A stretch of 64,000 nt of DNA from the NCBI GenBank assembly GCA_023247915.1, contig JAHFFN010000002.1, positions 1,202-65,201 of the forward strand, in the 5' to 3' direction. Source of the DNA: Candidatus Omnitrophota bacterium (GTDB taxonomy: Bacteria > Omnitrophota > Gorgyraeia > 2-02-FULL-51-18). Under the pieces are notes generated by a model. It saw only the letters and a list, made by a program, of their open reading frames with translations, had not been told where the DNA came from and ran no database searches. Both the position numbers and the translations under genes were made by a program. Shown here in pieces: positions 1-29,117 of this stretch (its first letter is position 1; each line of letters starts with the position of its first letter).

Positions 1-23
1 GAGAAGCTAAGCTAAGACATTAT

Positions 24-12000: not shown

Positions 12001-15000
12001 ATGTGTTTTATCAGCAAGGGGTTGGCTATGAAAGACCAGCTTATTCCAAGTATCTAGAAATTAAGTCCGATAAAGAGGGAAACGCGGTTTTGGATGCAGA
12101 CGGTCTTCCCATCATTGTCGATAAGGGTTATCCCGTGAAGTTTTGGACTAAAGTCGCTATTTTGGGTGATCCCAATGGAAGATACTATGTTCACGAAGCG
12201 TGGGTTCGGGATCCGATGGTGAAACCCATGCTCTTCGACAAAGGCAAAGTATTCACCCTAGACCTAGGCCGTGGAAAAAAAGAAGAGATTTTAATGCTGG
12301 GTCGTATTCGCCATATACGCTTCTATTTGAATGTAAAAGGAGAATATATGGGTGAGGAAGAGATCGAAGATCCCTTGGCCAGCCCTTGGTATTATGTCGC
12401 CGGTTTTGGCATCTTAATCGTGGCTCTTCTTACTCTTTTTGGATACCACATAAGAAGAAAAGGGCAAGGTATTTTGGACGATTTCCGAAAAAAGGCTTAC
12501 GACAAACTTCCAACTACTAATGGACAGAGTCGATCTGCTTCCACCACTTCCCAAGCAGCGCGTTTATCGGTGAATCGGTATAGCCCGGAGAACGATTTCT
12601 TCCAGAACGTAACTTCCAATTTATCTCAACTTCATGGCCGTATGACGGTTCCCCCCAGTGCCGACCAAAATTATTGGGCTTTCCTAGGGGAACGTAACTT
12701 GACGAGCTTAGCTGAAACCATTTCCCGATGTGAGACGCATATCCGTGACAACGAAGCCAACACGGATCAGACCTTTACCAGCAGAACCATCAACCGGTAC
12801 GAACAGACAATGGACGCTTTGGAAAGTGTCGCGATGACGGTGCAGGTGGCTTTGTACGGCCGGCGTGACCCTAAGGCAGGTTTTGTACGCCGGATGAAAT
12901 TAGGATGGTCTCCGTATCTTTCAGTGAGCGCTTTCACGTTGGATGAGATCACTGCCGAAAAAAGACGTTCCGGTGCTGAAATGAAGTTTTTCCGTGAGTG
13001 GCTCCGTCAATCCGGGTTTAAACATGCCGCTGAAGTCGAAAAAATGATGGAAAAGGATCCTATTCTGGCGATCACACTTTTGAGTGTCGCTGAAGACGAA
13101 GCAGAGAAGCATCTCAGAACTACGGGTCGCAATGCCCGGTATTATCTGGCCTATCAGTATCTTTTTGAGCCTATTCTGGAAAACAAAGTAAAACCTGTTA
13201 AAACTATTGAGGCTTTTGCCAAAAAGCGTGAAGAGATTGCGGTATTTTACGACACCCAGTATGAGTTCTTTACGACACGGCCTTACTATTACACCAAAGA
13301 TAAAAGAATCACGTATGAAGACATTGACGATCGTTTTAAAAATGAAACAGCTATTAATAATTTTTTTAAGGTAGCTGGGGATCGTAAGGAAGGAGCCGCT
13401 TATCTTAAGCAATTAAGAGATAAGGAAAAGCGTTTATTAGATCCTGAGAAAAACCCGGAACTCAAAGAAATGAAACGTCGACAGGAGTTGTTTGAGCGGG
13501 AATCCAAGGACAAAGGCTTCTTTTATAAGTTATTCAAAGGAATCTCCCGCGATAGAGACCCGGTTTTCAAGCGTCGGGTTAAGAAATATTCCGAAGAATT
13601 AGATGCGCTACGAAAAGAAATCGCGACGGTACAGAAACAAATTGTCAAAGGATTGAAACCGACGCTTCCTGGTTTTTCCAATCGCTCTAGATTTGGATTA
13701 GCTTTCTTGGGGGGCGTCGTCGCGGCGCTTACGGTTGGTGGAATGGCGATGTTATACACCGGCACGGCGATTGCTCTTACCATCGGTGGAGTTGCCGCTC
13801 TCGCTACAGCTTTCCTGATTCTTTTGATTACGGCTGTCATGAAGAATATGCCTAAAGACCGTATCGGCCCTGGCTTTTTTGCAAATCTTTGGATGCCAAT
13901 CTCGACTTATGGGTTCTCGGTTTTGGCGATGGTGATCACACCCTTCTTTTTCCACTGGGTGACGAGTTACGTGCTTTTAATGCTTATCTCCATCTCTCTG
14001 AGCATCCTATTTTCTTTTGTCGCGAGAATGATCATGGTGTATCTCAATAAAGTAGAAGTTCAAAGAGGGGTCGGAGAAAATGAAACTCAAGCCAAAGCAG
14101 TAGAAACCCCCGCAGTTTTTTGGCGCTTTTTCCATTGGACTTTTATCTCTTCATTTTTCACCAATTTCTGGCTTGGACTGTGGAATTCTCAAGTTCTTTT
14201 AACATTTTTTAAGGTTGGTACTTTTGGTGCGATCGCTTTCCATTTTACGCCGTTGGCGTTGATGCAAATCATGGTAACAGCCGTGACTCCTTTCGCGGTG
14301 GCTTATGCGGTCATTACCTTGATGTCCTGGGAAGAGGGTAAAAAGAAGGGTGTTGGCCAGGCCGGAACAATTGAAAAAGCCGAAATGCATTTTGAGGAAG
14401 CCAGAGAACATTATCGCAGTCTCTCAAACGAAATGATTCGTTCTGATGTCCCAACGGCAGAAGAAACAGTGCGTTTAGACACTGTTTATAACGCGGTATG
14501 GAATCGGAGTCTTGATTCGATGGTGAGACTTGGTGAAATAAACCAATCTGCCGCCAAATGGTTGAAAGGATGGGCTTTGACGGGTACCGCTTGTACGCTT
14601 GGTACCCCTAGACCGGCCGATGCAAAAATCGAAGAAGAAGCTGAAGAGCGTGTCCAACGCTTTGTCGAGGGTTGGCTGATGAATTTACCTCCAGTTTTAT
14701 GGTGGGAGTATCAGATGCCGGTAGCGTTTATGGGTACGGCATTCAATGAGTCTCTGCATTGGGATCGGAATATTCTCCAATCGGTAGAGAAAGGCGGAGA
14801 AGCTACTAATCTCAATAAATTTATTGAAGAGTACAATCCGGAGTGGAATATTTTTGTGGATGAGTACTTACCCGCTCACCTTTTGGGAAATAGGGTGCTG
14901 ACGGCGGCGGATCGTGCCGCACTCAAGGGATTAAGAGGAAAAAATGGTGTTCCAGATCATTTGTTTGTCCGTGATGATTTGATGATGCTTATCGAAAAAT

Positions 15001-18000
15001 TTGTGAATGATAGAGCTTGGAATGTGGGTCGATCCATCGCGGATCTGGAAAAATGCCGTCAAGGCTGGGTGGATATCGCGAGTGTGATGTTTTATGACGC
15101 CACCCCAGCTCAGATCGATCAACTCGTTGATACGCGAGTTCAACTCTTTATGAATTATGAAGGCTATAATTTTGCCGCCAAACCGGAAGATAGAAAAAAT
15201 ATGGATCGCGTGTTAAGAGAGAATCCTCACGTCGAAGCTTGGTGGGACAACAAAGTGTATCGGGGAGGGGTCACGGATTCTTTTGTGGTGGCAACGACTG
15301 GTGGGTTAAAAGTAGAAGGCAAGCACTTGCCTGGAGGTAAGACTCCTGGTCAGGGAGGCGCTTTACCCGCTATTTGGGGCAGCCAGCTTTTTATTACGGA
15401 CGCGAATGTCTCTTATGACGCCGAAGAAGTTTTTAGAATGCCCTATGCTTTTACCGGAATCAGTGAATTTAATCTAGACAGTGTCGATTATATTTTATTC
15501 GGTGAAAAAATATTTCCGAAAAAGTTTTCATTGCCAGGATGGGGTTATGCTTCCGCGGACGAAGCTTGGACGGGTCCAGTCCAGCGCTTTTTGGGAATGA
15601 TGCTCTCCGTTTTCTTCTATGGGCACAATGCCGTGACTTACCGCGCTTTATTCCAGGGAGTTAACGGCGCTCCCCATGATTATCCCAGCGAAGACATTAT
15701 CTTTGGTTTGATGCTGTGGCTTCTTGGGTATAAAACCAGCCACGAGGAAACCGTGCGAGCTGGTAAATCCAGACCGACCTCGACCATAGGTAATAACGCT
15801 CCTTACGGAAAATATCCTGCCGGTGCGGCGGATTTGGCACGCATCCTAGGGAAGGTTTTGCGCAGTAAACAATTTTCATTGGGTCAGAAACTTCTCCTTA
15901 TTTTCACACTAGCCTTTTATTTTAGAAAAATATTGGTAGTGGGAATTCTTTACACAATTCTTAATTGGGTTGTGTATGCCGGTATCAGCGGCTATGTCGC
16001 ATTTCCTTGGCTTTTAGCGTTAGGGATTCTTGGACTTTTAGTCAGCCAAGCCATCACGACTCAAGGTTGGATGAGCTTGGTTGAAAAATACGGCCGCGCG
16101 AGAGGAACGCTCAAATACATTTATTATGCGCCGATTAATTATTATCTTTTTGTCGGTTACATCATTGTTTATGCCGTTAGTTTTATTATTGGTCTTCTGG
16201 GCTTTGCTAAATTTCCAATTACTCAAAAAATTCTCGATACCGGCTGGATAAAATTTGATGAAATTTATAAAAGAGTTGAAGCGAAGGCTTATGGCGCCAG
16301 ACTGGCGTCCAATAAATTTTCAGGGCTGGTTCGTCAATGGTTGGGACTGACACCCGACTGGCGTTATGATCTCAAGGACAAAACTCTCTATGAATCAAGG
16401 CTAATTTTGTGGTCGACAGTGGTGGGGGCGATTATTTCTACCATACTCATTATCATGCCGGATTCGCTGGCGCATGGCGTGGATTTAAAAACATGGCTAT
16501 GGGCTGTTCCTCAGTATGGTTTGCCGATGATCGCCGCTTTTTGTACTTGGGTGACTGTCCGTGTAGACCATGTACGGGAGAAAAAAGTTCTCCGTGTATT
16601 TCAAGAGCTATTTCCTGAAGATCTTTCCAAGATTTCCAGAGAAAAACTATCCATTCTTTTCAACATCTCTCTTTTGCCACCCATTTTTGGGAGCATTTTC
16701 ATCTGGAGATCGGCTGGGCTCTTGTGGTCTGCTTTTTATATGGGTGTTCCATTCGCTTCTCTCTACGCTCTCATCTATGCCCAACCTATTTTAGATTTAA
16801 AAATCATGAAGTATCGTGTGCCCAAGCTCGCGATTCTTGGATTGATCGGCGGTACGGCCGCTATTTTGACTTCAATCAGTGCCTGGGGGCTTTTAACAGC
16901 TTGGTTGATTGCGGTAGTGTATGTTGAGATTATTTACAAACCGCTAAGAAAATATGTGCTTCCTTTTGGGACTCCCGAGTTTGAGCAAAAGATGAAACAA
17001 ACACTTTTGACTGACCGGAAACTCGAAGAGGGCATGGAACCTTTTCGCCAGGTCTATGCTTTTTCAAAAGAAATTGCCGCCATGGAAACAGATTTAGGTT
17101 CGGATAATGCCAAATCCGCTGAACTGGCTTCTCTTGAAAAATCACATTTGCTTTTAAGATCTTCTGAAGAACTAGCTTCGATCGCAAGTGATCGCGGCGT
17201 CGCTTTGAATCAACTGAAGCCTAGTGATAAGTACCGGACGGCTCCCGAGGCGATCACAGCATTTTCAGAGTCTATCGATCTCAGGACGGCTTTAGCACAA
17301 AAATCGACGGCGGATCGGGAAAGAATCGTCCATCTAGTTCAAAGACATTTTGACATTGATTTAAGAAATGCGCTTAAACCTGAAGAGCTCGATGTTCTTG
17401 CGCACACCGGTTTATTTTATGATCGTGAAGGGCGTCTGAGGACAGCCTCTGAAATACTCGACGCGTTTGATCAGTTATTGAATACGATGCAAATTCTACC
17501 GAGAGCCGTGAATGAACTTGGCGAGGCGAAATCGAGCCAGGTGAAAAAATTCCTTTTAGGCGCTCTGGGAATCGATCTGGAGCATTTAAAGCCGGAAGAT
17601 ATTGGCAAAATAGTTTCCACCGGCATTTGTTATGACCCCCAGGATCCCAATCCAAGAGACCCACAACTTCTTTCCAGCCACACCATCGCGGATCGTCTGC
17701 ATCAAGCCATTAGTTTCTCCGAAGCGCTTTCCGCAAAGCCAAACCAAACTCAAATCCGCGCTTTTGTGATAGATCTTTTTGAAAGAAACGGTGAAGACGG
17801 TATTGACCTGTCTAAAGAAGATCTCAGCGCTGAAAAATCCGCGCAGCTTTTTGAAAAAGGGTTTATGACGGACAGCCTGGGCCATCTCAGAACAGCCGGC
17901 CAAATGATTGATTTTGTAGATAGTTTATCTCGATTTGATGGAGAAGTGGCCGCTCTTCCTGAAAAAGATCGCGATAAGGTAAAAGATTTTATGAAAAATG

Positions 18001-21000
18001 TGTTCAAAATAGAAATCAAGGGAGACGTCAAAAAAGATTGGCCGTTTCCGGCAATTATCGCCTACAGCCATGCCGAACTTTTCATCAATACGGATGGAAG
18101 TTTCATTCCTTCAACCGCATTTGTCAATCGCTTGAAAGGCCTCTCCATTTTGTATGACGAAATTGATTCTCATACCAACGGCAAGATGGTAATGGATCTT
18201 TTCAAGACAGGTGTGAAGCTTAATCATGGACGTTATCTATTTGATGAGCATGGACAGTTGCGTACCGTGGAAGACTTGCTGGATCAGGTCAATGAATATT
18301 TTATTAAGCAAATGCCGGTGGCTATCAAATCACATCCGGATCCGAAGCTTATTAATAATTATGCGGCAGGATTTTTTGGTGACAAGAAGGCCAAGGGACA
18401 AAGCTTAGCCGATGAAAATGTGACCTCGGCAGGTGTCAGCGCTCTCAATAGTGAAGATATTCTTTTAGATGAAGACGGACGTTTTCGCGCGCCTTCGGAA
18501 ATCGTGGATCTTTTATACGAAAAAGCAGTCGCAAAAGAATTGGCGCCTAAATTAAAGGTGGCGGTCAGCCGCCACGCGGAACGAGAAGAGTTGGTGCCTG
18601 CCTTCCAAGACGTATTGGGAATCAAGGTTAATTCAGGTATGACCGCCGACGCAGTGCTTGTTTTAGCTTCAAATCCTGATTATCAAAGTCGTTTGCAAAA
18701 TCATTTAGGCTCTGTTGTAGGACAAGTGCTTCGGAGTGATGTGCCGGCGCTCTGTTTTGCGGATCCGGAGCCGGGCATGGGTGGTGGCGCTGCTATCGGA
18801 CATGCGCTTAGCCGTTTTGACAATGAGTTGAGTTCTTTGGCGATTCGTTATCCGCATCTGGCAGGTCGAAAGCTTGAAGATTTGAATCTAGTGATCATTG
18901 ATGCTCGAGAAGAAATGCCGCATTTTTCCGGCACTCTCATCGAAGGAGCTGGGGCTCTCATGCCTTTGCCGGTGCCTCTTAAGAATGGAAATCCAGCCAG
19001 AATCATCGATCTTCAACTCCAGACAGCTTATATGTATACGCGTACGATTGAGCATCTTGGTCAAAGAGGCGGGCTTGTGGTTATGAGAGGGGATGAGTTC
19101 AAGATTTCTGAACCAAAATTAAAAGAAGGTGTGAATTATATTTCACAATCTCCTGATCCTCAAGAACCCATTAGCGCTACGATTACTTTTTCCAACCCTT
19201 CAAAATATGGGCATTTCTTAGGTGGTCTCATGGATTTGGATGCTAGATCTAATCTCAGACACACTAGTTTTTATGATTTTTGTCAAGAAAGTGGCCGCCA
19301 TGGCACACCCATTCGTTCTCTTGAAACAGCCGAAAATCGTTCTTTTGCTATTCGTTGGGATAGCAATGCTACTTGGTTTGACGGCATCCAAAAGAAACCT
19401 TGGGACAGTCGAGTCGCGATGAAAGTGCTTGGCAGAAAATCTTTAATGGCCAGCACCAGTAACAAGACAGCACTATTATCCGAAAATGTAATGCTTCTAG
19501 CTTCATTGATAGGGCGCAATAACCGCATTGGCGCTAATTCTGCTATTTGGTACTCAGCGCTCGATTCTTCATCTATTATCGGGTCTTCTTCCGTGCTTTA
19601 CCGTGTCCGCGGCAAGGTGGATATGTCTTATCAAGGTCGTGTGTTGGAAAATGTATTTTTGGGTTTTGCTCCGGTGTGGGATAGAGAATCAGGGGATGTC
19701 CGCTCGGCGGTAATTTTTTCAGGTTTAAGAGATGTATTGCCCTCTCATCAACCCGTCGCCTCTGCTGATGCTTTAATTTTTGGAAAGCCTTATTCCGATA
19801 TCATTGCTCGTGGTGGCATGCAAGTGGATCCGGCGGTATCGAGTGACGATGTAGAGATGTGGCCGATGATTGACGCAGGACAATTCCATACGGATCTCAT
19901 CAAGTGGATGGCTACCGGAGAAAGTGCTCCTCAAGCCTACCGTCAGGCCAAGAAAGTTTCTTTAAATCAAATCAGAGCCGGCCTTCCCTCGGTTGAACCT
20001 AACACCCCGAGGAACGCTCCATGGGGATCTCAGATGGGTCTTTTGTTCTGGAAGCAAGGTTTGATCGGAACCCACAAGGTCTATGCTTGGGGGCTTTATT
20101 CGCAAGCGGTCGAAAAAGACTCCAAGACACAGGCGGCTCGTTTAGCTTCTAAAGAAACACCTCAACTGATACAGGTAAGTGTGGAAGGCGGAGTTCCAAA
20201 ATTGGAAGGCAATATGATTGGCGTGGCAAGTCTTTCCCCGGATATTCGTAGCAGTATTTACGGAAGAAATTTGCATGAAGATCTGGACGGAGACCCTCGC
20301 TACGGTGAAAGATTGGATGGTAGTGTTCCTATGGAAAGAGTTTCCCTTAGTAACGTAATTTTGGAAGTGAATCTATTGGATGGCGGTCTCGGCCTTAACG
20401 TTGGTCGAAAATTATATCTTATTAAAACAAGAAAAATAACCGATAGAAACGAAGGTGCTAAAGGGACGGATCTGGGTCGGCATGTCGATGTCACAGTGAT
20501 TGATCAAGATACAAACGAAGAAATAGAAATTAAAGATGTGTTTGTCAGTTTTGCCGAAATTAAACTACTAAACGCGATCGCTCGCATGGAAGAAAATAAA
20601 TACGCGGGACTTGTTTACAACGCGTTGGTGAGCGCTGAATCAATCGGTTCTTACCAAGATCTTTTTGAAACTGACATTTATATTTTGGACAGAGTGAACC
20701 CTAGTATTCCTGCAGATCAAAAAAGAACCTATGCGCAAATTGTCAAAGAAATGAAAGCGCGTGGACTTGATTTCAAAATGGCGGATCCTGAGGTGGAAAT
20801 AGCAATCCCCACTCGAAATTTTACTACCGGTGACTTAAGTGTGGATGTCACAGGTCCCGGAGGACATGGCCGCGCCGGTTTGGATTTGGTTGTGGGACCC
20901 TATTTCGATAATTCGTTGATGGCAGATTGGAATAGAGGGCTGACCCACATAGCTCTTTTTAACAACGGGGATGGTGTAATGAATACTACCGATGACGTGA

Positions 21001-24000
21001 CTATCCGGTGGATGATAGACCAAAACATCCCCGTGGTGATGGGAACCACCGAAAAGACAGACATGGATCGCAAGGGAGGCAATTTAGGACTTCAGGTTGA
21101 TTTTGATGCCGTGAAAAGTCTTTTAGAGCAGACAGAGACTCCGCTGGATCCTCATGATCGTGCTATCTTGACAAATCTTTTGCAGACAAAAAACCTGGAA
21201 GCGCTTATTGAAATGGATAGTTTAAAAGAACAGCATGTGCGATTTAAAATTACCAATCTTGCGATTCTTCGTCAAATACTGATTCCTCAAATTGAGGAAT
21301 TGGCACAAGCCAGACTCGGCGGTCCGGATCAAATGAAAACTTTCCAAAGCTACGGACTTCCGGGAGGGCAAGGTGAGGTAAGACAGCAGGATTTTAATAC
21401 GAACAATGTGGGGGTAAATAAAACACTTTTACACCGGTATATGAAGGAACTAGTTGCGCGTGGAATCGTAACAGAAGAAGAGCTTTTCAAAATCATCAGT
21501 CCTGACATGATGGCCAAGGATCCTAAATTTGCCAATGGCAATTGGTATGGCATTCTTGAGGGCGCCATGGGATCCACTCTCTTGGCGTTTGGAAAATGGG
21601 TCGCCCAAAACCGGAAAGCTCAAGCGCTTTTGAAAGAAATGTTCGGGGTGGATCACTTGATCTACAAAAATTTCTACCGATCGAATACCAGTCACCCTAG
21701 ATTAAAAGAGCTGATGGCGCAAGGATGGAAGATTTATACCCGCGCCGATATTTTTACGCCTACCAAAGGATCGACGGATCATACGATTCAGACGGAATTG
21801 TTGGATTTCTTTAGTTTTGACACCAAACGATGGATATTAAAGGCCAATCAACCGGATCGTGATCCGCCCTTCATGGAAATTCCGGGACAGTTGTCGCCTT
21901 TCACCACAGCCGCGGATGAGTATCTTTCTGAAGTCGAGAATGTGGCCACGATTTTAAGAGGGTGCGGCATTCAATTTTTACGCCGCTTAGCCTATACCGG
22001 TGCCGGGATCGCTTGTGTGGCAGGCAGTCTTTTAGAAGGGGATGTGGAAATTTATATCACCAAAGAAACTAAGGATCCGGTGACTCCGGTTGATTTAACG
22101 GGACTGCCCTATAGAAATCAATTGCCTCAGGACGCCGATGGCCGCATTCATTTAAAAAATATTTTTGTGCGTGTGGATAAATATGGAGTCTTGACCTGGA
22201 TGCCGATTTTTGCTGAGCGTTTACAAAGAATCACAAAATCAAAATGGTTTCAGATGAACGCGAAAGATTGGCCCCAAGACATTCAAGCATTGTTTGATTC
22301 TAATAATCCCCAAGCGGTTGTCGGTTTAGCTGAGGCGATGAAAAGTAAATTTAGCGAGCTCAAAAAAACATCCACTCCTCCTACGGAAATACAAAAAGCT
22401 TACGACGAGATGGAGCATTTTCTCGCCTTGTTTGATTCGACCAGTAGCACCGGTGCGCGTCTTACAGAACCTTATTCAGATACAAAAATTATTGAAACGT
22501 TTAGGCGGCAATCAGAGGAAACAGCCGCTCTGCTTCCGGGTATTCTTACGGCTAAGAAGGCAGTGGAAGAAGCAACTAAGCTAGCAACTCCGATTTCTCC
22601 GGAAATAGTGGCTCAGGCGGCGCAAAAGACGCCCCTTCGGTATTCTTTTTATAGTGTTCCTAACAGAAGACATCCTCGAGGGATTTTTTCTCTTCAGGAA
22701 AATCCTGAGCGAGCCGGCAGAAGACCTTCTCAGTATGCGGGGGCAGGTACTTTCCAACCTTTCAACCCTAGTGGTTTCCATTATGGCAAGATTCCTCCTC
22801 ATGAACTGGTGTATGAAACCAAAGTTGAAGGTGTCCAGGCTAGCATTGTGACTAATGTGAGCCCCTTCGGCGAATCACACTTTTTGGTGGTTCCGGACAG
22901 ACAGAAAAATCTTCCTCAATATTTAGACGACCAAAGATACATCAGGCTTGCGTTGGGTATCCTCAAGAAAACCGAACGTGCCAATTTAAAATTTGGATTT
23001 AACAGCTTTGGAGGATTTGGATCCATTAATAATTTCCACTTGCAAGGTTTCTTCTATGGGGGCGATGGAGCTGACCCTGTTCAGTGGCAAAATCACGGGC
23101 GGTTACCGGTGGAAATGACAGGTCGTACACCCATCTATAACGAAAATGGAGTGGTTGTCTCAAAAGTTGCGAACTACCCCGCCAACGCACTGGCGTTTAG
23201 TTCGAAGAATATAGAGGCTCTTTCAGAGAAAATCATGCAATACATCACTATTTTAAATCAAAGTGATTTTGAGGAGGGTGGCGTTGTCAAGAAAGGTATT
23301 CCTTATAATATTTTATTCACCGACAACGAGGTGATAGTGATGCCCCGTCATTATGAATTTTCCAATGAATTTGGCGGCGGAACAGCGGTTTTAGAAATGT
23401 CCGGAGAGTTCATTATTACGGATCCGGCCATTATGGATAAGATTCAAGAAAAAAATATTTGGGATGAATTAGCAAGAACCACTATTCCTAAGGAACGGTT
23501 TGATCAAACAGTGGAGCAATGGCTTTTAGGTGTTAAAGGTAAAGGAGCAAGATTAGCCTCGAATACCTCGCGTGAGGAGATGCATCATATGCTTCAACGA
23601 GGACTCAAAAAATCAATGGAATCAATTAAAAAATCGGCGTGGGAAGAATTAGAAAAACCGGGCGCCACCCCTTCTAATGATGTGCTTATTATCACGGCTT
23701 CTACTGAAGCTCAAGCAGAACTTTATCGTAGACATGTGGAGTCCGTGCGCGGACTTTCGATTAGAAAAGACCAAGTGGTTTTGGTCATGGCAGATCCTTT
23801 AGATGAAGCTAAAAAAGGTCAACGGATTGGAAACGCGAGAGCTGTCAGCTATTCCTTGAGTGTTCTTTCGGATAGATGGTCTGATCTTCAAAGAGACAAC
23901 CCGCCTTTAAGAAATGTAGATTTTAATAAAGCCGTGATTACCATTATCCCCGCCGGCGGTCTTTCCTCCAGGTTTCCTTTGGGACTTCAGGCCGGATCAA

Positions 24001-27000
24001 AAATGCTTACAAAACTACCTATTTTCTTGCCTTTTGTCGGTCGGGTTTCAGAGAAAAAGAAAGCCGCCACTCTTTTTGATTTAGCGCTTCTATTTGGATA
24101 CCGGTTTGCTCAGAAACTGCGAAGTGAGGGGCGTGCAGGAATTGTGCATTTGGCCTCCGATTCGATTCTTATAACACCGGAACCTGTTATTTATAATGGC
24201 GTTACGATGTATGTAGCCCCTGGTACCGTGGAAGGCGCAGAAAGCCGTTTGGGTGTCACTTATGCGGATCCTGAAACTCGACTCGCTCGTATTTTTTACG
24301 AAAAACCAAATCAAGGAGAGATGGAAAAAGATGTGATCTTGAATAGTAGCCATACACTCAAAGAAAGACATCTAAGGCAACTTCGAGTTAATTCGGCGAC
24401 ATGGGTTTGGAGCCAAGAAGACGCAGAGCAACATCGGGTATATATTGAGGCGCTTAAAAATTTTGAAGAGTTTATTCAAGATCGGAAAAAAAGAGGAATT
24501 CCTGTATTTGAGGTAGATATTTCTCGTGAGTTTTTTACCCCACTCACGGCCAATTTGGAAGAATATTTACGCAGAAAAGGGGCTCTTACCGCCCCCCAAA
24601 AAGATTTTTACACGGATGTGTATGCTTATGTCACAAAAAATTTCCCTCCAAAAATTTATATCCCTCATTTTGACCCGCTTGAATCTTTTTATGAGGATTT
24701 GGGAACTCCGAAGCATTTCTGGAGCGTTGTCATGGCGGGTAATCATGTCAGACTTCCAGTGGAAGATGTTTTGGCAAGCGTACTCGGCTTGGAATCTTCC
24801 ACGAATGCCCAGATGGCTGTAACGGCTCGGAGAACTCGAGGAAGAGTCATTGATTCGATTGTAGGCGAAGACGCTGTGTTGGGTTCGAACTCTATTGTTA
24901 TAGACAGCACGCTTCTTGACAACTCGAATGTGGGTAAGGGCGCTATCGTTATAGGGTTAAAAAAGGCTCGCGTCAGCACTAACAATAATACGCTTTTAAT
25001 TCAGGTTCCCGTCGCTTATTTGGGTAAAAAAGATATGTCGGCATTTATTTATGCCGGCCGCGAGATTTTGACGGGTGTGATCAGTGATAAACATACCACG
25101 CTATTCCATCGCCAGGCCAAAGCATTGATCGCTAGCTGGACGGATCCTAGCGGAAATTCCTTAATGAAAACATTGCATATAGATGGTTATGACGATTGGT
25201 CACTTTTAGATTTGCCTATTTGGCCTGTGGCAGAAGTTTTCAATACAAGACTTATCAATTGGATGAATACCAGCAGAGAAGCTACTATGGAATATATCAA
25301 TGCCCCCAAAGTTTCCTTAAGAGAGATACTCAGCACTGTTGATTTTAATCGTATCGGTCAGGCATCTTCACAAGCTGCCAGACTATCATCCGAAAATTTC
25401 ACTAACTTTGTTCCGGATCTTTTGTATGGAAAGCGAATAGTTTTTGACGCGGGTACCCGTGAATTTCAATTTAAAATTACAAGAGATCTATTTGAAAAAA
25501 TTCAATCTCTGGGGGGCGGAACAGTTTACATTTCTTATCTCAATCCAAAAGGTGTTAAAAATTGGGTCGAAAAAGAGATTCAAACAATTCAATTAATCGA
25601 CGACGTTTATAAAATAGCATTGCCGGAAGGCGTAAACGATTTTACTTTATGTGTTAAAGCGGGCACTCAAGAATTTTGGCTTGAGCATAATATTCGAGCA
25701 GTTACAAGAGATCAATTGGTGTCGATTGGCCAAACCCCGTTCGAAGGACTTGAGTTTGAGGGCGCGAATATAGCAATAAGCCAAAAAGATCAGCAAATAA
25801 CTTTACCCGCAGACAGAGTACTCCGAGTGATTGCAAAGTTTGGTCGCAACCCGAAAACCGGTGAAAAGGGATTCCAAGATCCGGACAGAAATATCCAGGT
25901 TATTTTACACTATTTTGATCGTGGCTTAAAAACTTGGCGTAATTCACCCACGGTATTTGTAAGACAAACTTCCGGGCAGTATTACTTTGATGCTACGGTG
26001 CCGGAGAGCGCTGAACAAATAACCTTTGCTGTCTCTCCTTACGGTCGCATCATTAGCGCCACTGATTCTGACTCCGATCATGACAAATGGTTAGGGACAA
26101 ATTTGACGGTTGTCCAGCAGGCGGGAGCTCGCCTTTCCCAAGAAGAAACCATCCAACGAATCAAAGCTTCCGGGGCGGGAATTCTTACGGGGAATCAGGC
26201 TCAAGCATTTTCAAATACCGAATTCCTGGTGGCTACGAATAATTTGGCTGCTGTGGAGTCGTTGGATGTCGCGGCGCCGGTGAAACCCGTGTTTGCGTTA
26301 AATTTTGACGATATGTCCGTTTCCAATTTAAATCTGGATACAATTTTCGCGACCACGAGACTTTCTGACCTGACAATTCAAAGAATGTTGAAGAAGAAGC
26401 CGGAACTTGTTATTTTCCAGAAAGTGCCCGCTGTGAGTGCAACTAACGCAAACAAAGCCGACATTTTAAATCAAATTCAGACACAAATTAATCAAGCTCG
26501 TGCGGCTGGAGCCAAGGGAGTCAATCTCACTTATCAAATCTCAGTTCAAGAGCTCAAAGAGATCGCCGATAGAAATAAAGACATGCTGATCGCTGTGACC
26601 GGGGTGTCCGAGCGGGAGCTCCCGCTTGTCTATAGAATCGCTGAAAACGTGATTCCTTTTGTGACACCGGGATCCGTTGAGATGCTTCAAGAATTGTCCC
26701 CTTTGGAAAATATCGAAACAGTTTTGCGGAGAGAACTGTCCCATATTGATATTTTCGGAACCGCTTTCCTGTACGAACAAGGCATTACCCATCATTTGAT
26801 TGATTTCAAAAAACGATCCAACATGAGAGCTTGGTCGGCAGAAAAACTCGACGCAGACCCGGACGGCAGAACTCTGGAAAAGAAGATTAAGATTGTTACT
26901 ATTGAAGCATTTCGTTATGAGATTCTAATTCAATCAGAATACAACGATAAGATTTTTAAAGGGTATAAAGTCGATATTTTTCCTTACGATGCCTTAAGTC

Positions 27001-29117
27001 TGACCAGCCTCACCGGCAGAAAATCAATTTATTCCATGACCGTGCCCTTTGTCCCGGTGGACAACCCTCTTCCGCTTCATCTATCGGAAGCGATTCAACA
27101 CATCCGGAATAACCCCACCAACCCGGAACAAGCCGTCAAAGATCTGATCAGTTTATCGACAGGCGAGGCTAGACAAGTGTTTACCAATGGTTCTTTGCCG
27201 GCGATCATTGGTTTTATTGCGTTTGTGTCACCCAAATCACTCAGCAAAATCCGAAATTGGAATCCAGAAATCGTCGATTATTTACAAACACAAATAAACC
27301 TTGAAGATTTGATAGAGGTGTTTGTTCAGGGCAAAATAACCTCTTATCAGACAACCAAGCCCAACACCGGCATTGCGCTATCCCGTAATCTGCCGGACGG
27401 AAGAAAAGTATTTGGGGTGTTTAATTTTGCTCCTCAAAATGATCAAATTGTGGATGGAAAAGCTTGGTTTGAGGTGTTGCAGACACCCGAGCAATTACTT
27501 CCTCAAGGCCAAGAATTGATAGCACATAAGACCTACAATTGGGTCGAAGGCAAGTTTTATGACTCTTTTCATACATTTGAGAGCTTAAGGCAAAATCGCT
27601 GGCGCATTGGAGTTCCCGTGGAATTGATGACGGGCGAGAGACCTTGGCATTTCCAATGGCTTGAATTCAGACCCGCTCCTACAAATGGAGCCGCCGCCCG
27701 TCTTGCAGGCTTGGGTAATCTGGTAGCAGGCGTTGTTGGAATTTCCATTCTTCTTGGGGAGTGGGTGGCAGAACAATTAGCCAAGCAAACTCAAAAAGTG
27801 ACTGCCCAGAAAACTCAGCCCACGGTTGAGATACAAACGGCGCCCATTCAACAGATTTCAAAAATTGTGGTGGGGATTGTTCAGAAAGAAGGAATGCCTT
27901 TTGAACACCAGGAACACACCATTACCCAATGGCTCAGAGACCCCATGAATCATAGCGAAGAGTTTGCCGAGCAATTTCAGTTTGTTCGTGTTGACGATAC
28001 GGATGCGGCGAAGCGGGCATTTGTGGAACAACATCAAAACGCGCTGGCGGTTGTGCAGATTAATGTGCCGGCTAGTGAGGAAAACAGAGGTGAAATCCTC
28101 GAGCTTTTGATGAAAGCTTTTAGTGCTCGCCAAGAAAAATTAACCAGACAGTTGGCTCAGGCGGACGTTGTTTTGAAATTTTTAAGCGAAAACATTCAAA
28201 ATCCTAAGCATCATCTTCCAATCAGCATTTTACGTTCAGAGCTTCTGGCGTTATCTCGTCAATTCCCAGAACCACGTCCTTATCGTCAGGTTTATAACCA
28301 TGGAATTGTGTTGGTGAATGGTTCTTCTGAAGTGAAAGTGAGAGCTTCCGCTGAAAACGTCGCCCGTTCCATTAGCGGAGGGTTAACTGCTTCGGACGAA
28401 ACCGAAGCGCTTTCAACCATTCTTTCTGTGACGGAACAGATCGCCGATCAGGCTCAGTCGGGTGTTGGCGGCGCCAAAGGCCAGGGAAGTGAATGGATCG
28501 TTAAATTAATTAAATCCGTTCGTTCTGAGATTGAAAGAATGACCTCTGAATTTGCGGCTCCTGCGAATGGCGGCGTGTACACCTTGGTCACGCACGATAG
28601 CTTGTTTGCCGATGGCGCTAACTATGCCAAAGAAATCAAACGCTTTAAAGATGAAATTAAAGCCAAGCAAGATCGTGGGCAACTTCGAAATGTGACATTC
28701 CGCCACGTGCTCTTAATCACCGATGCGGATAAAGCCTATCTTTCCGGGAAGCTCCAAGGTCAATTTGATGAGGTAGTGATGGCTATTGGAGTGACCGATG
28801 TTGCTGAAATCCGCCAACATTACGGCACGATGCTGGGTAATCATTTTGTGATTGAGTCCGCTTCCGGTTCTCATGGTTTAACGATCGAAGCGTCCGATAA
28901 ACAAGCAGTGATAATCCAGCTTAAAGCCGGTGCCTCGTCTTACAAGATGCATAATGCCACCGCCGCGATTGCCTTGAAACCGAATGCGCAAGAGATTCAT
29001 TTCCCAGGTCTTTCAGGATCGGGCAATAGCTTTATATTCGAAGGTATTTTCACAAGAATCATGGAGTTGGTACGAAAGGCGCAGGACAACCTGACGACGG
29101 TTGGAAGCTCGGCCTAA
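24..29117 (+). CDS. giant multidomain envelope-spanning protein (9,697 aa); proposed trans-envelope glycan synthesis/export protein
   Basis: A single frame runs 29,094 nt with no stop. Every other-frame ORF inside it is under 240 aa and looks like an antisense or low-complexity shadow. Recognisable family motifs occur in this frame along its whole length (see sub-features). The start is GTG at 24 or ATG at 30. Codons 3-23 (GAA GCT AAG CTA AGA CAT TAT) contain no in-frame stop, so the true start could lie upstream of the window. Confidence 0.9.
   Translation: [9697 protein letters not shown]
36..110 (+). other. N-terminal signal-anchor helix of the giant protein with TonB/TolA-like S-x3-H-x6-L signature
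   Basis: The translation reads [29 protein letters not shown], a short basic N-terminus followed by a hydrophobic helix. S14 (nt 63-65), H18 (75-77) and L25 (96-98) match three of the four positions of the SHLS motif of TonB/TolA anchors; the fourth position is Leu29. Confidence 0.5.
1080..1580 (+). repeat. Ala/Glu/Lys-rich low-complexity helical tract (TolA domain II-like) inside the giant CDS; a second tract lies at ~2210-2650
   Basis: The translation reads [65 protein letters not shown]...[15 protein letters not shown]/AAR codon periodicity also generates spurious Ala/Ser-rich antisense ORFs (1079-1522, 1092-1319, 1338-1544). Confidence 0.7.
3260..7080 (+). other. array of roughly six TolC / outer-membrane efflux protein (OEP)-like repeats inside the giant CDS
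   Basis: Successive ~170-240-aa segments each show a short beta-like Gly/aromatic stretch followed by long heptad-like helices typical of OEP repeats. Examples are [31 protein letters not shown]...[42 protein letters not shown] and [44 protein letters not shown]...IKERFGL. Approximate segment starts are nt 3260, 3900, 4380, 5090, 5630 and 6340. Counted by eye only. Confidence 0.5.
10068..10607 (+). repeat. 2 x 270-nt (90-aa) in-frame tandem repeat inside the giant CDS
   Basis: Unit 1 (10068-10337) reads [83 protein letters not shown]. Unit 2 (10338-10607) reads [83 protein letters not shown]. The period is exactly 270 nt. Confidence 0.85.
12387..12446 (+). other. second transmembrane helix of the giant protein (return to the cytoplasm)
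   Basis: [20 protein letters not shown] is followed immediately by HIRRKGQ (positive-inside rule). No convincing hydrophobic helix is seen between aa ~90 and this point. Confidence 0.7.
13690..16230 (+). other. polytopic GT48 (FKS1 / callose synthase)-like glucan synthase module: TM cluster, ~500-aa cytoplasmic catalytic region, TM cluster
   Basis: The TM clusters lie at ~13690-14330 and ~15880-16230. The central region carries [36 protein letters not shown] (15328-15445), [13 protein letters not shown] (from 15614), PSEDIIFG (15687-15707) and GKSRPTS (~15763). These are collinear with the remembered GT48 blocks [37 protein letters not shown] / [12 protein letters not shown] / LSEDIFAG / GKGRDVG. 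The comparison is from memory, not computed. Confidence 0.5.
17180..18540 (+). repeat. six to seven degenerate ~70-90-aa protein repeats inside the giant CDS
   Basis: The recurring core is D-x-x-G-x-[LF]-R-[TA]-x-x-[EQ]-[IL]-[ILV]-D. Instances are [57 protein letters not shown] and [19 protein letters not shown]. Weaker copies are [37 protein letters not shown] and [18 protein letters not shown]. Confidence 0.55.
18700..19700 (+). other. fucokinase-N-type NDP-sugar pyrophosphorylase-like domain 1 (degenerate) with left-handed beta-helix tail
   Basis: [18 protein letters not shown] resembles the DP..riGSGGATLnAL block, and [11 protein letters not shown] resembles the vwV.stD.ll block. A hexapeptide-like run follows: [32 protein letters not shown]. 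The glycine-rich GG.s.R.P block is not conserved ([11 protein letters not shown]). Confidence 0.45.
20330..21700 (+). other. UDPGP-family UTP-sugar-1-phosphate uridylyltransferase (UGPase-like) domain
   Basis: [11 protein letters not shown] (20375-20405) matches the LNGGLGTSMG block. [13 protein letters not shown] matches P.[18 protein letters not shown] matches fvsN.DNLga.vD. [14 protein letters not shown] (21049-21090) matches t.Kt.aD.KGG. Confidence 0.6.
22640..23500 (+). other. GDP-L-galactose / GDP-D-glucose phosphorylase (VTC2/GDPGP1)-like HIT-superfamily domain
   Basis: [23 protein letters not shown] (22851-22900) and [21 protein letters not shown] (22995-23057) are collinear with the remembered VTC2 blocks INVSPIEYGHVLLIP....LPQ and GYNSLGAFATINHLHFQAYY. 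The first His of H-x-H-x-Q is Asn here; the second (nucleophile) His is retained. Confidence 0.65.
23680..24990 (+). other. fucokinase-N-type GDP-sugar pyrophosphorylase-like domain 2 with left-handed beta-helix tail
   Basis: Matching blocks are [21 protein letters not shown]...VVLVMADP...[38 protein letters not shown] and [11 protein letters not shown]. A hexapeptide-like run follows: [39 protein letters not shown]. Confidence 0.6.

What the first reader, a model, noticed from the sequence alone, without database searches (positions are those of the whole stretch)
18700..24990. Four nucleotide-sugar enzyme-like domains fused in series, mostly of eukaryote-associated families
Four domains follow in order. 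The first is a degenerate fucokinase-N-type pyrophosphorylase-like domain (18700-19700). It has ADPEPGMGGGAAIGHAL, but its Gly-rich loop is not conserved, so it may be non-catalytic. The second is a UDPGP/UGPase-like domain (20330-21700; LLDGGLGLNVG, GPGGHG, KTDMDRKGG). The third is a GDP-L-galactose/GDP-D-glucose phosphorylase-like HIT domain (22640-23500; NVSPFGESHFLVVP, GFNSFGGFGSINNFHLQGFFY). Its H-x-H-x-Q motif reads N-F-H-L-Q, keeping the presumed nucleophile His. The fourth is a better-conserved fucokinase-N-type domain (23680-24990; IIPAGGLSSRFP). The VTC2/GDPGP1 and fucokinase-N families are best known from eukaryotes and a few bacteria. Fusing them to a glycosyltransferase suggests on-site supply, or proofreading, of UDP-/GDP-hexose donors. 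GDPGP1 is thought to remove mis-made GDP-glucose.
Basis: partly seen in the sequence, partly recalled or inferred. Interest (0 to 1): 0.65.

Follow-up and report, generated by a model that had tools for sequence, protein, structure and literature searches.

The report
Sugar-nucleotide enzyme train on giant glucan synthase
Four sugar-nucleotide enzyme domains really do sit in a row, inside one 9,697-residue bacterial membrane protein whose core resembles fungal beta-1,3-glucan synthase, and a repeated five-residue motif marks every border between them.

Summary
Region 18700-24990 lies inside one ORF (24-29117, 9,697 aa).

The four modules:
- **aa 6201-6703:** a degenerate paralogue of module 4. 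The Gly-rich loop is lost and PF07959 scores below its cutoff.
- **aa 6709-7476:** a UDPGP-type pyrophosphorylase. The family profile matches solved UGPases at E 9e-21, and all family-invariant residues are present.
- **aa 7482-7840:** a GDPGP1/VTC2-type HIT phosphorylase. BLASTP to an annotated GDP-D-glucose phosphorylase gives 5e-21. The family-invariant His and the motif Gln are kept.
- **aa 7846-8450:** a fucose-pyrophosphorylase domain (PF07959, E 3e-15, above cutoff).

New context:
- The glycosyltransferase upstream is GT48/FKS1-like (E 7e-21).
- GT48-core relatives in an Omnitrophota MAG and a Planctomycetia MAG both carry the GDPGP1-like module downstream. The Omnitrophota one also carries UDPGP-like modules.
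- Every module border carries [GA]ARL[AST]: 8 copies against 0.14 expected.
- Related giant proteins use their own delimiter motifs between sugar-metabolism enzymes.

Best reading: a built-in line that supplies and edits sugar donors for the synthase, possibly processed as a polyprotein. Enzyme activities, substrates and cleavage are untested. The case is a new variant of the recently described multi-enzyme giant proteins.

The parts
24..29117 (+). Giant ORF of 9,697 aa that holds everything below. The frame is open back to window base 3, so the 5' end is not proven. A hydrophobic segment at aa 4-22 fits a true N-terminus.
14574..16292 (+). GT48/FKS1-like glycosyltransferase core (aa 4851-5423), flanked by clusters of transmembrane helices. 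Motifs GKTPGQ, TDAN, SEDI and GKSRP align to FKS1 GKSDNQ, IDAN, NEDI and GKGRD.
   Evidence: Profile A3 against PDB: FKS1 7xe4 E 7.3e-21 in three collinear stretches. Alignment. TM scan. No Pfam hit on its own.
16947..18623 (+). Helical repeat region A1 (aa 5642-6200), about five units with a (F/L)xDxxGxLR(T/A) signature. Function unknown. Its first ~200 residues are conserved in GT48-core relatives.
   Evidence: Read directly. BLASTP to L003p/P0005 E about 1e-24 to 1e-26.
18624..20132 (+). Module 1 (A2, aa 6201-6703): degenerate paralogue of module 4. It keeps ADPEPGMGGGAAIGHAL but has lost the AGGxSxRF loop. Probably a pseudo-enzyme.
   Evidence: BLASTP against D 2e-8 and 1e-7, collinear. 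Full-length alignment. PF07959 30.3 bits, below the cutoff of 34.
20148..22451 (+). Module 2 (B, aa 6709-7476): UDPGP-type sugar-1-phosphate nucleotidyltransferase, catalytic domain plus C-terminal beta-helix. It has a ~60-aa insertion after the KGG motif and a helical tail.
22467..23543 (+). Module 3 (C, aa 7482-7840): GDPGP1/VTC2-type HIT-superfamily NDP-hexose phosphorylase-like domain. Motif N-F-H-L-Q at aa 7670-7674, with the family-invariant His at 7672.
23559..25373 (+). Module 4 (D, aa 7846-8450): fucose-pyrophosphorylase (FKP/fucokinase-N type) domain with the Gly-rich loop IIPAGGLSSRFP and a left-handed beta-helix.
   Evidence: PF07959 E 3.3e-15, 56.4 bits above the cutoff of 34, HMM positions 4-415 of 418. 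TIGR02091 glgC E 8e-6.
12555..12569 (+). Delimiter motif copy 1, AARLS (aa 4178)
16293..16307 (+). Delimiter motif copy 2, GARLA (aa 5424), right after the GT48 core
20133..20147 (+). Delimiter motif copy 3, AARLA (aa 6704), at the border of modules 1 and 2
22452..22466 (+). Delimiter motif copy 4, GARLT (aa 7477), at the border of modules 2 and 3
23544..23558 (+). Delimiter motif copy 5, GARLA (aa 7841), at the border of modules 3 and 4
25374..25388 (+). Delimiter motif copy 6, AARLS (aa 8451), at the end of module 4
26124..26138 (+). Delimiter motif copy 7, GARLS (aa 8701)
27693..27707 (+). Delimiter motif copy 8, AARLA (aa 9224), immediately followed by a transmembrane helix (aa 9227-9245)
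25389..29114 (+). Three further motif-delimited modules of unknown family: E (aa 8456-8700), F (aa 8706-9223) and G (aa 9229-9697, which starts with a TM helix).
   Evidence: No significant Pfam, NCBIfam or PDB match. Only a weak CBM53 hint for E, E 0.17.

Best explanation
The region encodes four consecutive modules in the predicted cytoplasmic tail of a giant membrane protein whose core is a GT48 (FKS1-like) polysaccharide synthase.

- Module B is a UDPGP-type pyrophosphorylase. It would make a UDP-hexose, most simply UDP-glucose, from UTP and hexose-1-phosphate.
- Module D is an FKP-N-type pyrophosphorylase. It would make a GDP- or other NDP-sugar.
- Module C is a GDPGP1/VTC2-type HIT enzyme. 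It would use its conserved histidine to phosphorolyse an NDP-hexose back to hexose-1-phosphate plus NDP. That would edit or recycle the donor pool.
- Module A2 is an inactivated copy of D. It most likely serves as a structural or regulatory partner.

Together they form a built-in line that supplies and quality-controls sugar donors, placed next to the active site of the synthase that consumes them. Each module is bracketed by the pentapeptide [GA]ARL[AST].

Shown here: the domain families, the retained and lost motifs, the GT48 homology, the motif at every border, and the recurrence of the GT48 and GDPGP1-like combination (plus UDPGP-like modules in one case) in distant relatives.

Inferred: enzyme activity, substrates, cytoplasmic topology, channelling to the synthase, and what the motif does.
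For: Family assignments:
- D: PF07959 E 3.3e-15, above the cutoff.
- B: family profile against solved UGPases E 9e-21, and 21/21 members hit PF01704. The window sequence keeps all 24 invariant columns and the UGPase motifs GGLG, GGHG, NGDG, D-x-KGG, FNTN, EGAxG and TPxK.
- C: profile hits PF26216/PF26217 proteins at 4e-40, including a protein that UniRef names GDP-D-glucose phosphorylase 1. Direct BLASTP gives 5e-21. Yeast Apa2 (HKHLQ) is the nearest solved structure, E 1e-5, with the invariant His aligned to the second His of that motif.
- A2: a paralogue of D that lacks the Gly-rich loop.

Synthase core: profile against FKS1 gives E 7e-21, with the GK, DAN, ED and GK-R motifs aligned.

Conserved linkage: GT48-core relatives at 40% identity carry a GDPGP1-like domain downstream of the core. 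In the Omnitrophota MAG (L003) the E-value is 2e-21, followed by two UDPGP-like domains (8.5e-118 and 1.5e-68). In the Planctomycetia MAG (L002) it is 1e-20.

Related trains hold further enzymes of the same pathway: PGM, NDK-like, UDP-glucose dehydrogenase and 6PGL-like.

Hydropathy places all eight motifs and the four modules on the same side of the membrane as the GT domain.
Against: - No enzyme activity or substrate can be read from sequence.
- B alone is below the Pfam cutoff (18.9 against 22 bits).
- C has Asn in place of the first His of H-x-H-x-Q.
- In D, the upstream motif that A2 keeps as GMGGGAAI reads RIGNARAV. Neither paralogue therefore has both motifs intact (read; the role of that motif rests on my recollection of FPGT/FCSK sequences).
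- Module order is not conserved. The window has A2-B-C-D, the Omnitrophota relative has C-B-B, and the closest C relatives (L004, L006) have no B or D nearby.
- No A2/D-type module was found in any relative sampled.
- If the motif is a cleavage site, the enzymes are not tethered to the synthase.
- Both structure models were too poor to inspect active sites.
Confidence: 0.6

Rival explanations
1. Polyprotein. The giant ORF is a precursor that is cut at each [GA]ARL[AST] site, or translated in pieces. The four modules would then act as separate soluble enzymes and the link to the synthase is only co-expression. This can coexist with the supply-line reading but replaces tethering and channelling.
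For: - The window has 8 motif copies against 0.136 expected, and the maximum was 3 in 2,000 shuffles. Codons differ between copies, so selection acts on the peptide.
- Every copy sits at a module border and none lies inside a recognised domain. This holds for 0 of 24 domain instances across nine proteins.
- Relatives carry their own motifs in the same role: G[AS]RL x12, RSEAR x10, RASASG x6, ARSATV x4, R[SA]EVR x22.
- In L004, modules begin with Met right after the motif. One opens with a canonical Tat signal (RSEVR|MTRREFLRTAG...) and two with a CsrA N-terminus (RSEVR|MLVLSRKVGE).
- In the window, the last motif is followed directly by a TM helix, as a signal anchor would be.
- West-Roberts et al. 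(bioRxiv 10.1101/2023.11.21.568195) proposed cleavage of Omnitrophota giant proteins but had no cleavage points.
Against: - No protease domain was found in the giant protein.
- The only protease-family gene nearby is an ordinary DJ-1/PfpI gene 12.8 kb downstream.
- No proteomic or N-terminal data exist.
- One site (aa 5424) would split the FKS1-like membrane domain from its last four predicted helices.
- The motif could simply be a favoured linker or a docking peptide.
Confidence: 0.35
2. Donor synthesis by exchange. The GDPGP1-like module does not edit. It runs as a GalT-like nucleotidyl transferase, or in reverse, and together with B and D builds a less common NDP-sugar for a heteropolymer made by the GT48-like core.
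For: HIT-branch enzymes with H-x-H-x-Q (GalT, Apa1/2, VTC2) work through a covalent nucleotidyl-His intermediate that either phosphate or a sugar phosphate can resolve (established knowledge). Two pyrophosphorylase types of different nucleotide preference flank C. The first His of the motif is replaced in all three GT48-linked copies (N, S, S), which suggests a distinct subgroup.
Against: The characterised family members GDPGP1 and VTC2 are phosphorylases, and FKS1-type enzymes use UDP-glucose (both points from my own knowledge). Nothing in the sequence indicates a second sugar.
Confidence: 0.2
3. Non-catalytic array. The modules are pseudo-enzymes that bind sugar nucleotides or phosphates and regulate or scaffold the synthase.
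For: A2 has clearly lost the Gly-rich loop. D has a degenerate upstream motif. B is divergent enough to fall below the Pfam cutoff. An inactive paralogue that regulates an active pyrophosphorylase is known for GMPPA/GMPPB (from memory).
Against: B keeps every family-invariant residue. C keeps the invariant His, Gln and the other four invariant positions. D keeps the AGGxSSRF loop. Such conservation across relatives at 30-50% identity argues for catalysis.
Confidence: 0.12
4. Chance resemblance or assembly artefact.
For: Single-sequence scores for B and C are weak. The giant protein was not found in the 5.8-billion-protein collection when the 2,225-aa region or the GT-core alignment was the query.
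Against: Profile-level E-values run from 1e-20 to 1e-40. There are 662 relatives in the representative library. The architecture is collinear with independent MAG contigs. Ferrochelatase and its neighbours from this window occur on a 75.5-kb ENA contig with the same gene order. GC content is uniform.
Confidence: 0.02

Closest known systems
Eukaryote-type UDP-glucose pyrophosphorylase (UDPGP family PF01704; solved examples 8c0b, 2i5k, 2oef)
   Same: Module B shares the catalytic domain and the C-terminal beta-helix. The motifs GGLG, (P)GHG, N-x-D, K-x-x-D-x-KGG, FNTN, E-x-A-x-G and PVK/PTK are aligned.
   Different: Identity to solved enzymes is low, so the window sequence alone scores below the Pfam cutoff. 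B has a ~60-aa insertion after KGG and a ~75-aa helical tail. It is embedded in a 9,697-aa protein. It belongs to a distinct bacterial clade that occurs mostly inside very long proteins.
GDP-D-glucose phosphorylase 1 / GDP-L-galactose phosphorylase VTC2 (PF26216/PF26217), with yeast Ap4A phosphorylase Apa2 (4i5t) as the nearest solved structure
   Same: Both halves are homologous over about 280 residues (BLASTP 5e-21). C keeps the invariant His and the Gln of H-x-H-x-Q, and the C-terminal ATP_transf-like half.
   Different: The first His of the motif is Asn here, and Ser in the other two GT48-linked copies. C is a module of a giant bacterial protein rather than a ~40-kDa cytosolic enzyme. Its substrate is unknown.
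FKP / fucokinase N-terminal GDP-fucose pyrophosphorylase domain (PF07959)
   Same: D matches nearly the whole Pfam model above the cutoff. It has the Gly-rich loop and the left-handed beta-helix.
   Different: There is no GHMP-kinase (fucokinase) half. D is duplicated, and one copy (A2) is degenerate. No solved relative was detectable by sequence.
Fungal beta-1,3-glucan synthase FKS1 (GT48; 7xe4) with donor supply by separate or fused enzymes, e.g. the diatom/oomycete UGP/PGM fusion (PMC2173943)
   Same: The core is a GT48-like catalytic loop between clusters of TM helices. The logic of placing UDP-glucose synthesis next to a membrane glucan synthase is the same. In diatoms a UGP/PGM fusion is proposed to feed the glucan synthase, and some of those metabolic-enzyme fusions may be cleaved after translation.
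   Different: Here the synthase and the donor enzymes are on one bacterial polypeptide. A phosphorylase module and a second pyrophosphorylase type are added. There is a ~4,100-aa region N-terminal to the first internal TM helix.
Multi-enzyme metabolic giant proteins of Omnitrophota (Nielsen & Lui, bioRxiv 10.64898/2026.06.07.730766; West-Roberts et al. 10.1101/2023.11.21.568195)
   Same: Many distinct enzyme domains tile one very long polypeptide, with a sugar-metabolism theme (PGM, glycosyltransferases, HIT). The closest GT-core relatives include an Omnitrophota MAG.
   Different: Term searches of the two papers found no mention of glucan synthase, pyrophosphorylase, UDP-glucose (second paper only), linker or polyprotein, and the Omnitrophota paper has no mention of cleavage. 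The window protein is just under their 10-kAA threshold, and its organism is not identified.

Membership tests
UDPGP (PF01704), module B | Score at or above the Pfam gathering cutoff (22 bits) | tested here: not met
   18.9-19.2 bits, E 6e-4, and only HMM positions 193-254 matched.
UDPGP (PF01704), module B | Profile-level homology to solved UGPases across the catalytic and C-terminal domains | tested here: met
   Profile A2 (alignment id) against PDB: 8c0b E 9.1e-21, and 16 UGPase sequences at or below 1e-13. 21/21 family members hit PF01704, best 2e-20.
UDPGP (PF01704), module B | Catalytic and nucleotide-binding motifs: GGLG loop, GHG, N-x-D, D-x-KGG lysine | tested here: met
   LLDGGLGLNVG, GPGGHG, FNNGDG and KTDMDRKGG are present. 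All 24 family-invariant columns are kept.
UDPGP (PF01704), module B | UTP + glucose-1-phosphate uridylyltransferase activity | not testable with these tools
   Needs an enzyme assay.
GDPGP1/VTC2 (PF26216, PF26217), module C | Match to the family's Pfam models | not testable with these tools
   The local Pfam copy lacks these models. An annotated GDPGP1 (P0152) gets no hit in it.
GDPGP1/VTC2 (PF26216, PF26217), module C | Significant similarity to annotated family members over both halves | tested here: met
   BLASTP against P0152 (GDP-D-glucose phosphorylase 1) E 5e-21, 28% identity over 284 aa. The family profile hits 14 PF26216/PF26217 proteins, down to 3.8e-40.
GDPGP1/VTC2 (PF26216, PF26217), module C | H-x-H-x-Q motif | tested here: inconclusive
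   The window reads N-F-H-L-Q. The second His is invariant in 25/25 sequences and aligns to the second His of Apa2 HKHLQ, and the Gln is present. The first His is Asn.
GDPGP1/VTC2 (PF26216, PF26217), module C | Phosphorolysis of GDP-hexose | not testable with these tools
   Needs an enzyme assay.
Fucose_pyrophosphorylase (PF07959), module D | Score at or above the gathering cutoff (34 bits) over the full model | tested here: met
   56.4 bits, E 3.3e-15, HMM positions 4-415 of 418.
Fucose_pyrophosphorylase (PF07959), module D | Gly-rich NTP-transferase loop | tested here: met
   IIPAGGLSSRFP at aa 7974-7985. Its equivalence to the G-x-G-x-R type loop rests on established knowledge.
Fucose_pyrophosphorylase (PF07959), module A2 | Score at or above the gathering cutoff (34 bits) | tested here: not met
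   30.3 bits, and only HMM positions 265-391 matched. It is still a clear paralogue of D.
Fucose_pyrophosphorylase (PF07959), module A2 | Gly-rich NTP-transferase loop | tested here: not met
   It aligns as VIIDAREEMPHFSG.
GT48 beta-1,3-glucan synthase (context) | Homology to the FKS1 catalytic region with the GK...DAN...ED...GK-R motifs | tested here: met
   Profile A3 against 7xe4 E 7.3e-21. Motifs are at aa 5104-5253.
GT48 beta-1,3-glucan synthase (context) | Pfam Glucan_synthase match for the window sequence alone | tested here: not met
   No Pfam family at E <= 5 for aa 4183-5423 apart from a chance-level hit.
Omnitrophota multi-enzyme giant proteins (Nielsen & Lui 2026) | At least 10,000 aa, many distinct enzyme Pfams on one polypeptide, Omnitrophota host | tested here: inconclusive
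   The ORF is 9,697 aa with an unproven 5' end. At least five enzyme-type modules are present. The host is unknown, and the nearest GT-core relatives are an Omnitrophota MAG and a Planctomycetia MAG at 40% identity.

The most novel reading that the evidence does not exclude
Bacterial giant 'enzyme-train' proteins may be true polyproteins with a lineage-specific cleavage or release code. The short delimiter peptide would mark where modules are separated: [GA]ARL[AST] here, and R[SA]EVR, RSEAR, RASASG, ARSATV and ASSLG in relatives. One ORF would then deliver a stoichiometric set consisting of a GT48-type glucan synthase, its donor-making and donor-editing enzymes, and exported or regulatory modules (Tat-signal proteins, CsrA). 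This would supply the missing cleavage points for giant bacterial proteins. It would also show a eukaryote-like glucan toolkit (FKS1-like synthase, eukaryote-type UGPase, GDPGP1, fucokinase-N type domain) assembled in bacteria related to the PVC group or Omnitrophota.
Probability: 0.3. Interest if true: 0.85.

Novelty: new variant of a known kind. Interest (0 to 1): 0.72.

Why it matters
- **Bacterial GT48:** fungal and plant GT48 glucan/callose synthases are major cell-wall enzymes and drug targets (from my knowledge). My literature searches found no description of bacterial relatives. Here a bacterial FKS1-like core is physically joined to the enzymes that would make and police its sugar donor. 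That gives a compact, testable model of donor channelling and editing.
- **GDPGP1 context:** in my recollection, the proposed role of GDPGP1 in removing mis-made GDP-glucose rests on limited evidence. Its repeated fusion to a glucan synthase, with a UGPase-like module in two of the three cases, provides a natural context in which to test that role.
- **Delimiter motif:** if it is a processing site, the motif would let giant bacterial proteins be split into their functional units for structure prediction and biochemistry. The authors of the giant-gene study said they could not do this for lack of cleavage points.

Tried and rejected
- **The search for homologous proteins:** the whole 2,225-aa region and the GT-core alignment both returned nothing. 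This was a limit of the word index, because the exhaustive representative search found 662 relatives.
- **Collection scans with window peptides or the GT core:** Genome contigs with window peptides found nothing. The metagenome scan with the GT core found nothing. Alignments A2 and A1 were too diverse for pattern scans.
- **Single-sequence PDB searches:** weak or empty for all four modules. The D+A2 profile found only generic beta-helix proteins and no FKP-type structure.
- **AlphaFold models:** unusable. C with 15 sequences gave pLDDT 49.8. D with 2 sequences gave pLDDT 34.
- **Foldseek on the C model:** Apa2 ranked first but at E 0.13 and TM 0.29, which is not evidence.
- **Hidden non-standard stops or ribosome-binding sites:** I considered that the giant ORF might be a run of genes with such signals. 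I rejected this for the window because neighbouring genes use standard stops and the motif codons vary. In L004 the motif DNA is more uniform (CGY KCC GAG GTG CGG) and contains GAGGTG, so internal initiation there is not excluded.
- **Cognate protease:** none was found in the protein. The only candidate in the 35 kb downstream is an ordinary DJ-1/PfpI gene.
- **Literature:** searches for bacterial GT48 or a glucan-synthase/UGPase fusion in Omnitrophota or Planctomycetes found nothing specific.

Full report
**Setting**

The flagged region (nt 18700-24990) is not a gene of its own. It lies inside a single ORF, nt 24-29117, of 9,697 aa. The frame stays open back to base 3 of the window, so the start is not proven. 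A hydrophobic segment at aa 4-22 fits a real N-terminus. GC content is even across the window.

The other 35 kb hold ordinary bacterial chromosomal genes. These include ExbB/ExbD, a TPR protein, a VWA protein, a GT4 glycosyltransferase, a HemD-HemE fusion, ferrochelatase, ThiC, IspH and cytochrome c maturation genes. The ferrochelatase and its neighbours occur in the same order on a 75.5-kb contig of an ENA metagenome assembly, ERZ27296333.

**Checking the observation**

- **Domain 4 (D, aa 7846-8450).** Pfam alone settles this one. PF07959 (fucose pyrophosphorylase) scores E 3.3e-15 and 56.4 bits against a cutoff of 34, over positions 4-415 of the 418-position model. A weaker glgC match covers the beta-helix part.
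- **Domain 1 (A2, aa 6201-6703).** It is a collinear paralogue of D, with two BLASTP segments at 2e-8 and 1e-7 and a full-length alignment. It scores only 30.3 bits on PF07959. The loop 'IIPAGGLSSRFP' of D aligns to 'VIIDAREEMPHFSG'.
- **Domain 2 (B, aa 6709-7476).** It is weak alone (PF01704 E 7e-4; UGPases in PDB E 0.01). An exhaustive search of 1.84 billion representatives with B+C found 662 relatives, 35 of them below 1e-30. A profile of 20 B-type relatives plus the window sequence matches solved eukaryote-type UGPases at 9e-21, over both the catalytic and the C-terminal domains. All 21 members hit PF01704. The window sequence keeps all 24 invariant columns and the UGPase motifs.
- **Domain 3 (C, aa 7482-7840).** It gave only sub-threshold HIT and ATP_transf hits at first.
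  - Its family profile reaches yeast Ap4A phosphorylase Apa2 at 1e-5, with the invariant His on the second His of HKHLQ.
  - In the large protein collection the profile hits PF26216/PF26217 proteins at about 1e-40. One of them is named GDP-D-glucose phosphorylase 1 by UniRef.
  - Direct BLASTP of the window domain to that protein gives 5e-21.
  - The local Pfam copy lacks those two models, which explains the earlier silence.
  - The window motif reads N-F-H-L-Q. The first His is lost. The invariant His (7672) and the Gln are kept.

**The glycosyltransferase**

The membrane region upstream has no Pfam hit. A four-sequence profile of aa 4851-5423 and its relatives matches fungal FKS1 at 7e-21 in three collinear pieces. 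The motifs GK..Q, DAN, (S/N)EDI and GK.R are aligned. The core is therefore GT48-like. From general knowledge, that family makes beta-1,3-glucan from UDP-glucose.

Hydropathy suggests the following layout (inferred):

| Region (aa) | Predicted feature |
|---|---|
| 4-22 | N-terminal anchor |
| 23-4117 | about 4,100 aa outside the membrane |
| 4118-4143 | TM helix |
| about 4559-4767 | first TM cluster |
| 4768-5290 | GT loop |
| about 5291-5641 | second TM cluster |
| 5642-9226 | 3,600-aa tail carrying the four modules, on the same side as the GT loop |
| 9227-9245 | final TM helix |

**Conserved linkage**

GT-core relatives at 40% identity exist in an Omnitrophota MAG (L003, the same family as P0005) and a Planctomycetia MAG (L002). 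In both, the whole contig is one open frame.

With family HMMs, L003 shows GT48 core, then A1, then a GDPGP1-like domain (2e-21), then two UDPGP-like domains (8.5e-118 and 1.5e-68). L002 shows a GDPGP1-like domain after the core (1e-20) before its 4.4-kb contig ends.

Their HIT motifs read S-K-H-I-Q and S-L-H-F-Q. As in the window, the first His is replaced and the invariant His and Gln are kept.

The pairing of a GT48-like core with a GDPGP1-like module is therefore conserved in all three proteins. UDPGP-like modules accompany it in two of them. Their order is not conserved. No A2/D-type module was seen in any relative sampled.

**The delimiter motif**

The pentapeptide [GA]ARL[AST] occurs eight times, at aa 4178, 5424, 6704, 7477, 7841, 8451, 8701 and 9224. 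Composition predicts 0.136 copies, and 2,000 shuffles never gave more than 3. Codons differ between copies, so the peptide rather than the DNA is conserved.

Five of the copies are the exact borders of the four modules. All eight lie in the part predicted to be cytoplasmic. The last is followed at once by a TM helix.

Related giant proteins use their own motifs:

| Protein | Motif | Copies |
|---|---|---|
| P0019 | G[AS]RL | 12 |
| P0092 | [GA][AS]RL | 8 |
| P0134 | RSEAR | 10 |
| P0143 | RASASG | 6 |
| P0145 | ARSATV | 4 |
| P0004 | ASSLG | 6 |
| L004 (open frame of at least 6,374 aa) | R[SA]EVR | 22 |

In nine proteins, none of 24 recognised domains contains a motif copy.

The modules between motifs are mostly enzymes of hexose-phosphate and NDP-sugar metabolism: PGM, UDPGP, NDK-like, UDP-glucose dehydrogenase, 6PGL/GlcN6P-isomerase-like and GDPGP1-like. 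A methyltransferase and CsrA also occur.

In L004, three modules start with Met directly after the motif. One opens with a textbook Tat signal and two with a CsrA N-terminus. This is the strongest hint that modules are released or separately initiated. It comes from a relative, not from the window.

**Mechanism**

The best-supported reading is a built-in donor line for the synthase:

- B makes the UDP-hexose.
- D makes a second NDP-sugar.
- C phosphorolyses a wrong or surplus NDP-hexose back to hexose-1-phosphate.
- A2 is an inactive partner of D.

The families, the motifs and the conserved linkage are shown. The substrates, the topology, the channelling and the role of the motif are inferred. 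The main rival is that the ORF is a polyprotein and the modules work as free enzymes. The two readings differ only in whether the modules stay tethered.

**Novelty**

A 2026 preprint describes 'multi-enzyme metabolic' giant proteins in Omnitrophota with a sugar-metabolism theme. A 2023 preprint proposed cleavage of giant proteins but lacked cleavage points. Term searches in both found no mention of glucan synthase, pyrophosphorylase, linker or polyprotein.

The four-domain finding is therefore a new variant of a known kind. The delimiter motif is the part that could be new in kind.

**Limits**

- Both structure predictions failed, so active sites were judged from alignments only.
- The relatives from the representative library could not be used for structure prediction or for context look-ups.

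Noticed in passing
window 12555-12569, 16293-16307, 20133-20147, 22452-22466, 23544-23558, 25374-25388, 26124-26138, 27693-27707: The pentapeptide [GA]ARL[AST] recurs 8 times (0.14 expected) exactly at module borders of the giant protein, encoded by varied codons. None lies in the first 4,100 aa.
   Followed up: yes
L004 (JGI contig Ga0247727_10000609) nt 2-19123; aa 2598, 2950, 3667 of the open frame: A related open frame of at least 6,374 aa has 22 copies of R[SA]EVR between modules (PGM, four CsrA domains, GDPGP1-like, 6PGL-like). Three modules begin with Met right after the motif: one Tat signal (MTRREFLRTAG...) and two CsrA N-termini. The motif DNA is fairly uniform (CGY KCC GAG GTG CGG) and contains the Shine-Dalgarno-like GAGGTG.
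   Followed up: partly
window 14574-16292 (and TM clusters 13698-14324, 15894-16946): The glycosyltransferase core of the giant protein is GT48/FKS1-like (profile E 7e-21) although Pfam finds nothing. Relatives occur in Omnitrophota and Planctomycetia MAGs.
   Followed up: yes
window 16947-18623: About five helical repeats of ~80-100 aa with a (F/L)xDxxGxLR(T/A)xE(I/L)(L/I)D signature lie between the membrane domain and module 1. No family match.
   Followed up: no
window 25389-29114: Three more motif-delimited modules (E, F, G) have no family assignment. E has a faint CBM53 hint (E 0.17). G starts with a TM helix, so its ~450 C-terminal residues would lie across the membrane.
   Followed up: partly
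window 24-12374: The first ~4,100 aa have no Pfam match at all. They include an Ala/Glu/Lys-rich, probably coiled-coil stretch (aa ~340-900) and long beta-rich regions with internal duplications (e.g. aa ~3340-3560).
   Followed up: no
window 23790-23858 versus 18759-18809: The two PF07959-type paralogues have complementary degeneracy. A2 keeps 'ADPEPGMGGGAAIGHAL' but loses the AGGxSxRF loop. D keeps the loop but reads 'ADPLDEAKKGQRIGNARAVSYSL' at the first motif. This might point to a heterodimer-like pair.
   Followed up: partly
window 35342-37300: Uroporphyrinogen-III synthase (HemD) and uroporphyrinogen decarboxylase (HemE) are fused in one 652-aa ORF, next to ferrochelatase.
   Followed up: no
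P0002 aa 1001-1076 (closest relative of module C, 49% identity): After its GDPGP1-like domain this 1,076-aa protein carries a different, unassigned 680-aa N-terminal region and a tail with 'TGGIDLN'. No B or D module was detected by BLASTP.
   Followed up: no
tools: The local Pfam-A copy lacks PF26216/PF26217 (GDPGP1 N- and C-terminal domains), so a plain Pfam scan cannot recognise module 3. The word-indexed protein search failed on the long and the very divergent queries that the exhaustive search solved.
   Followed up: yes
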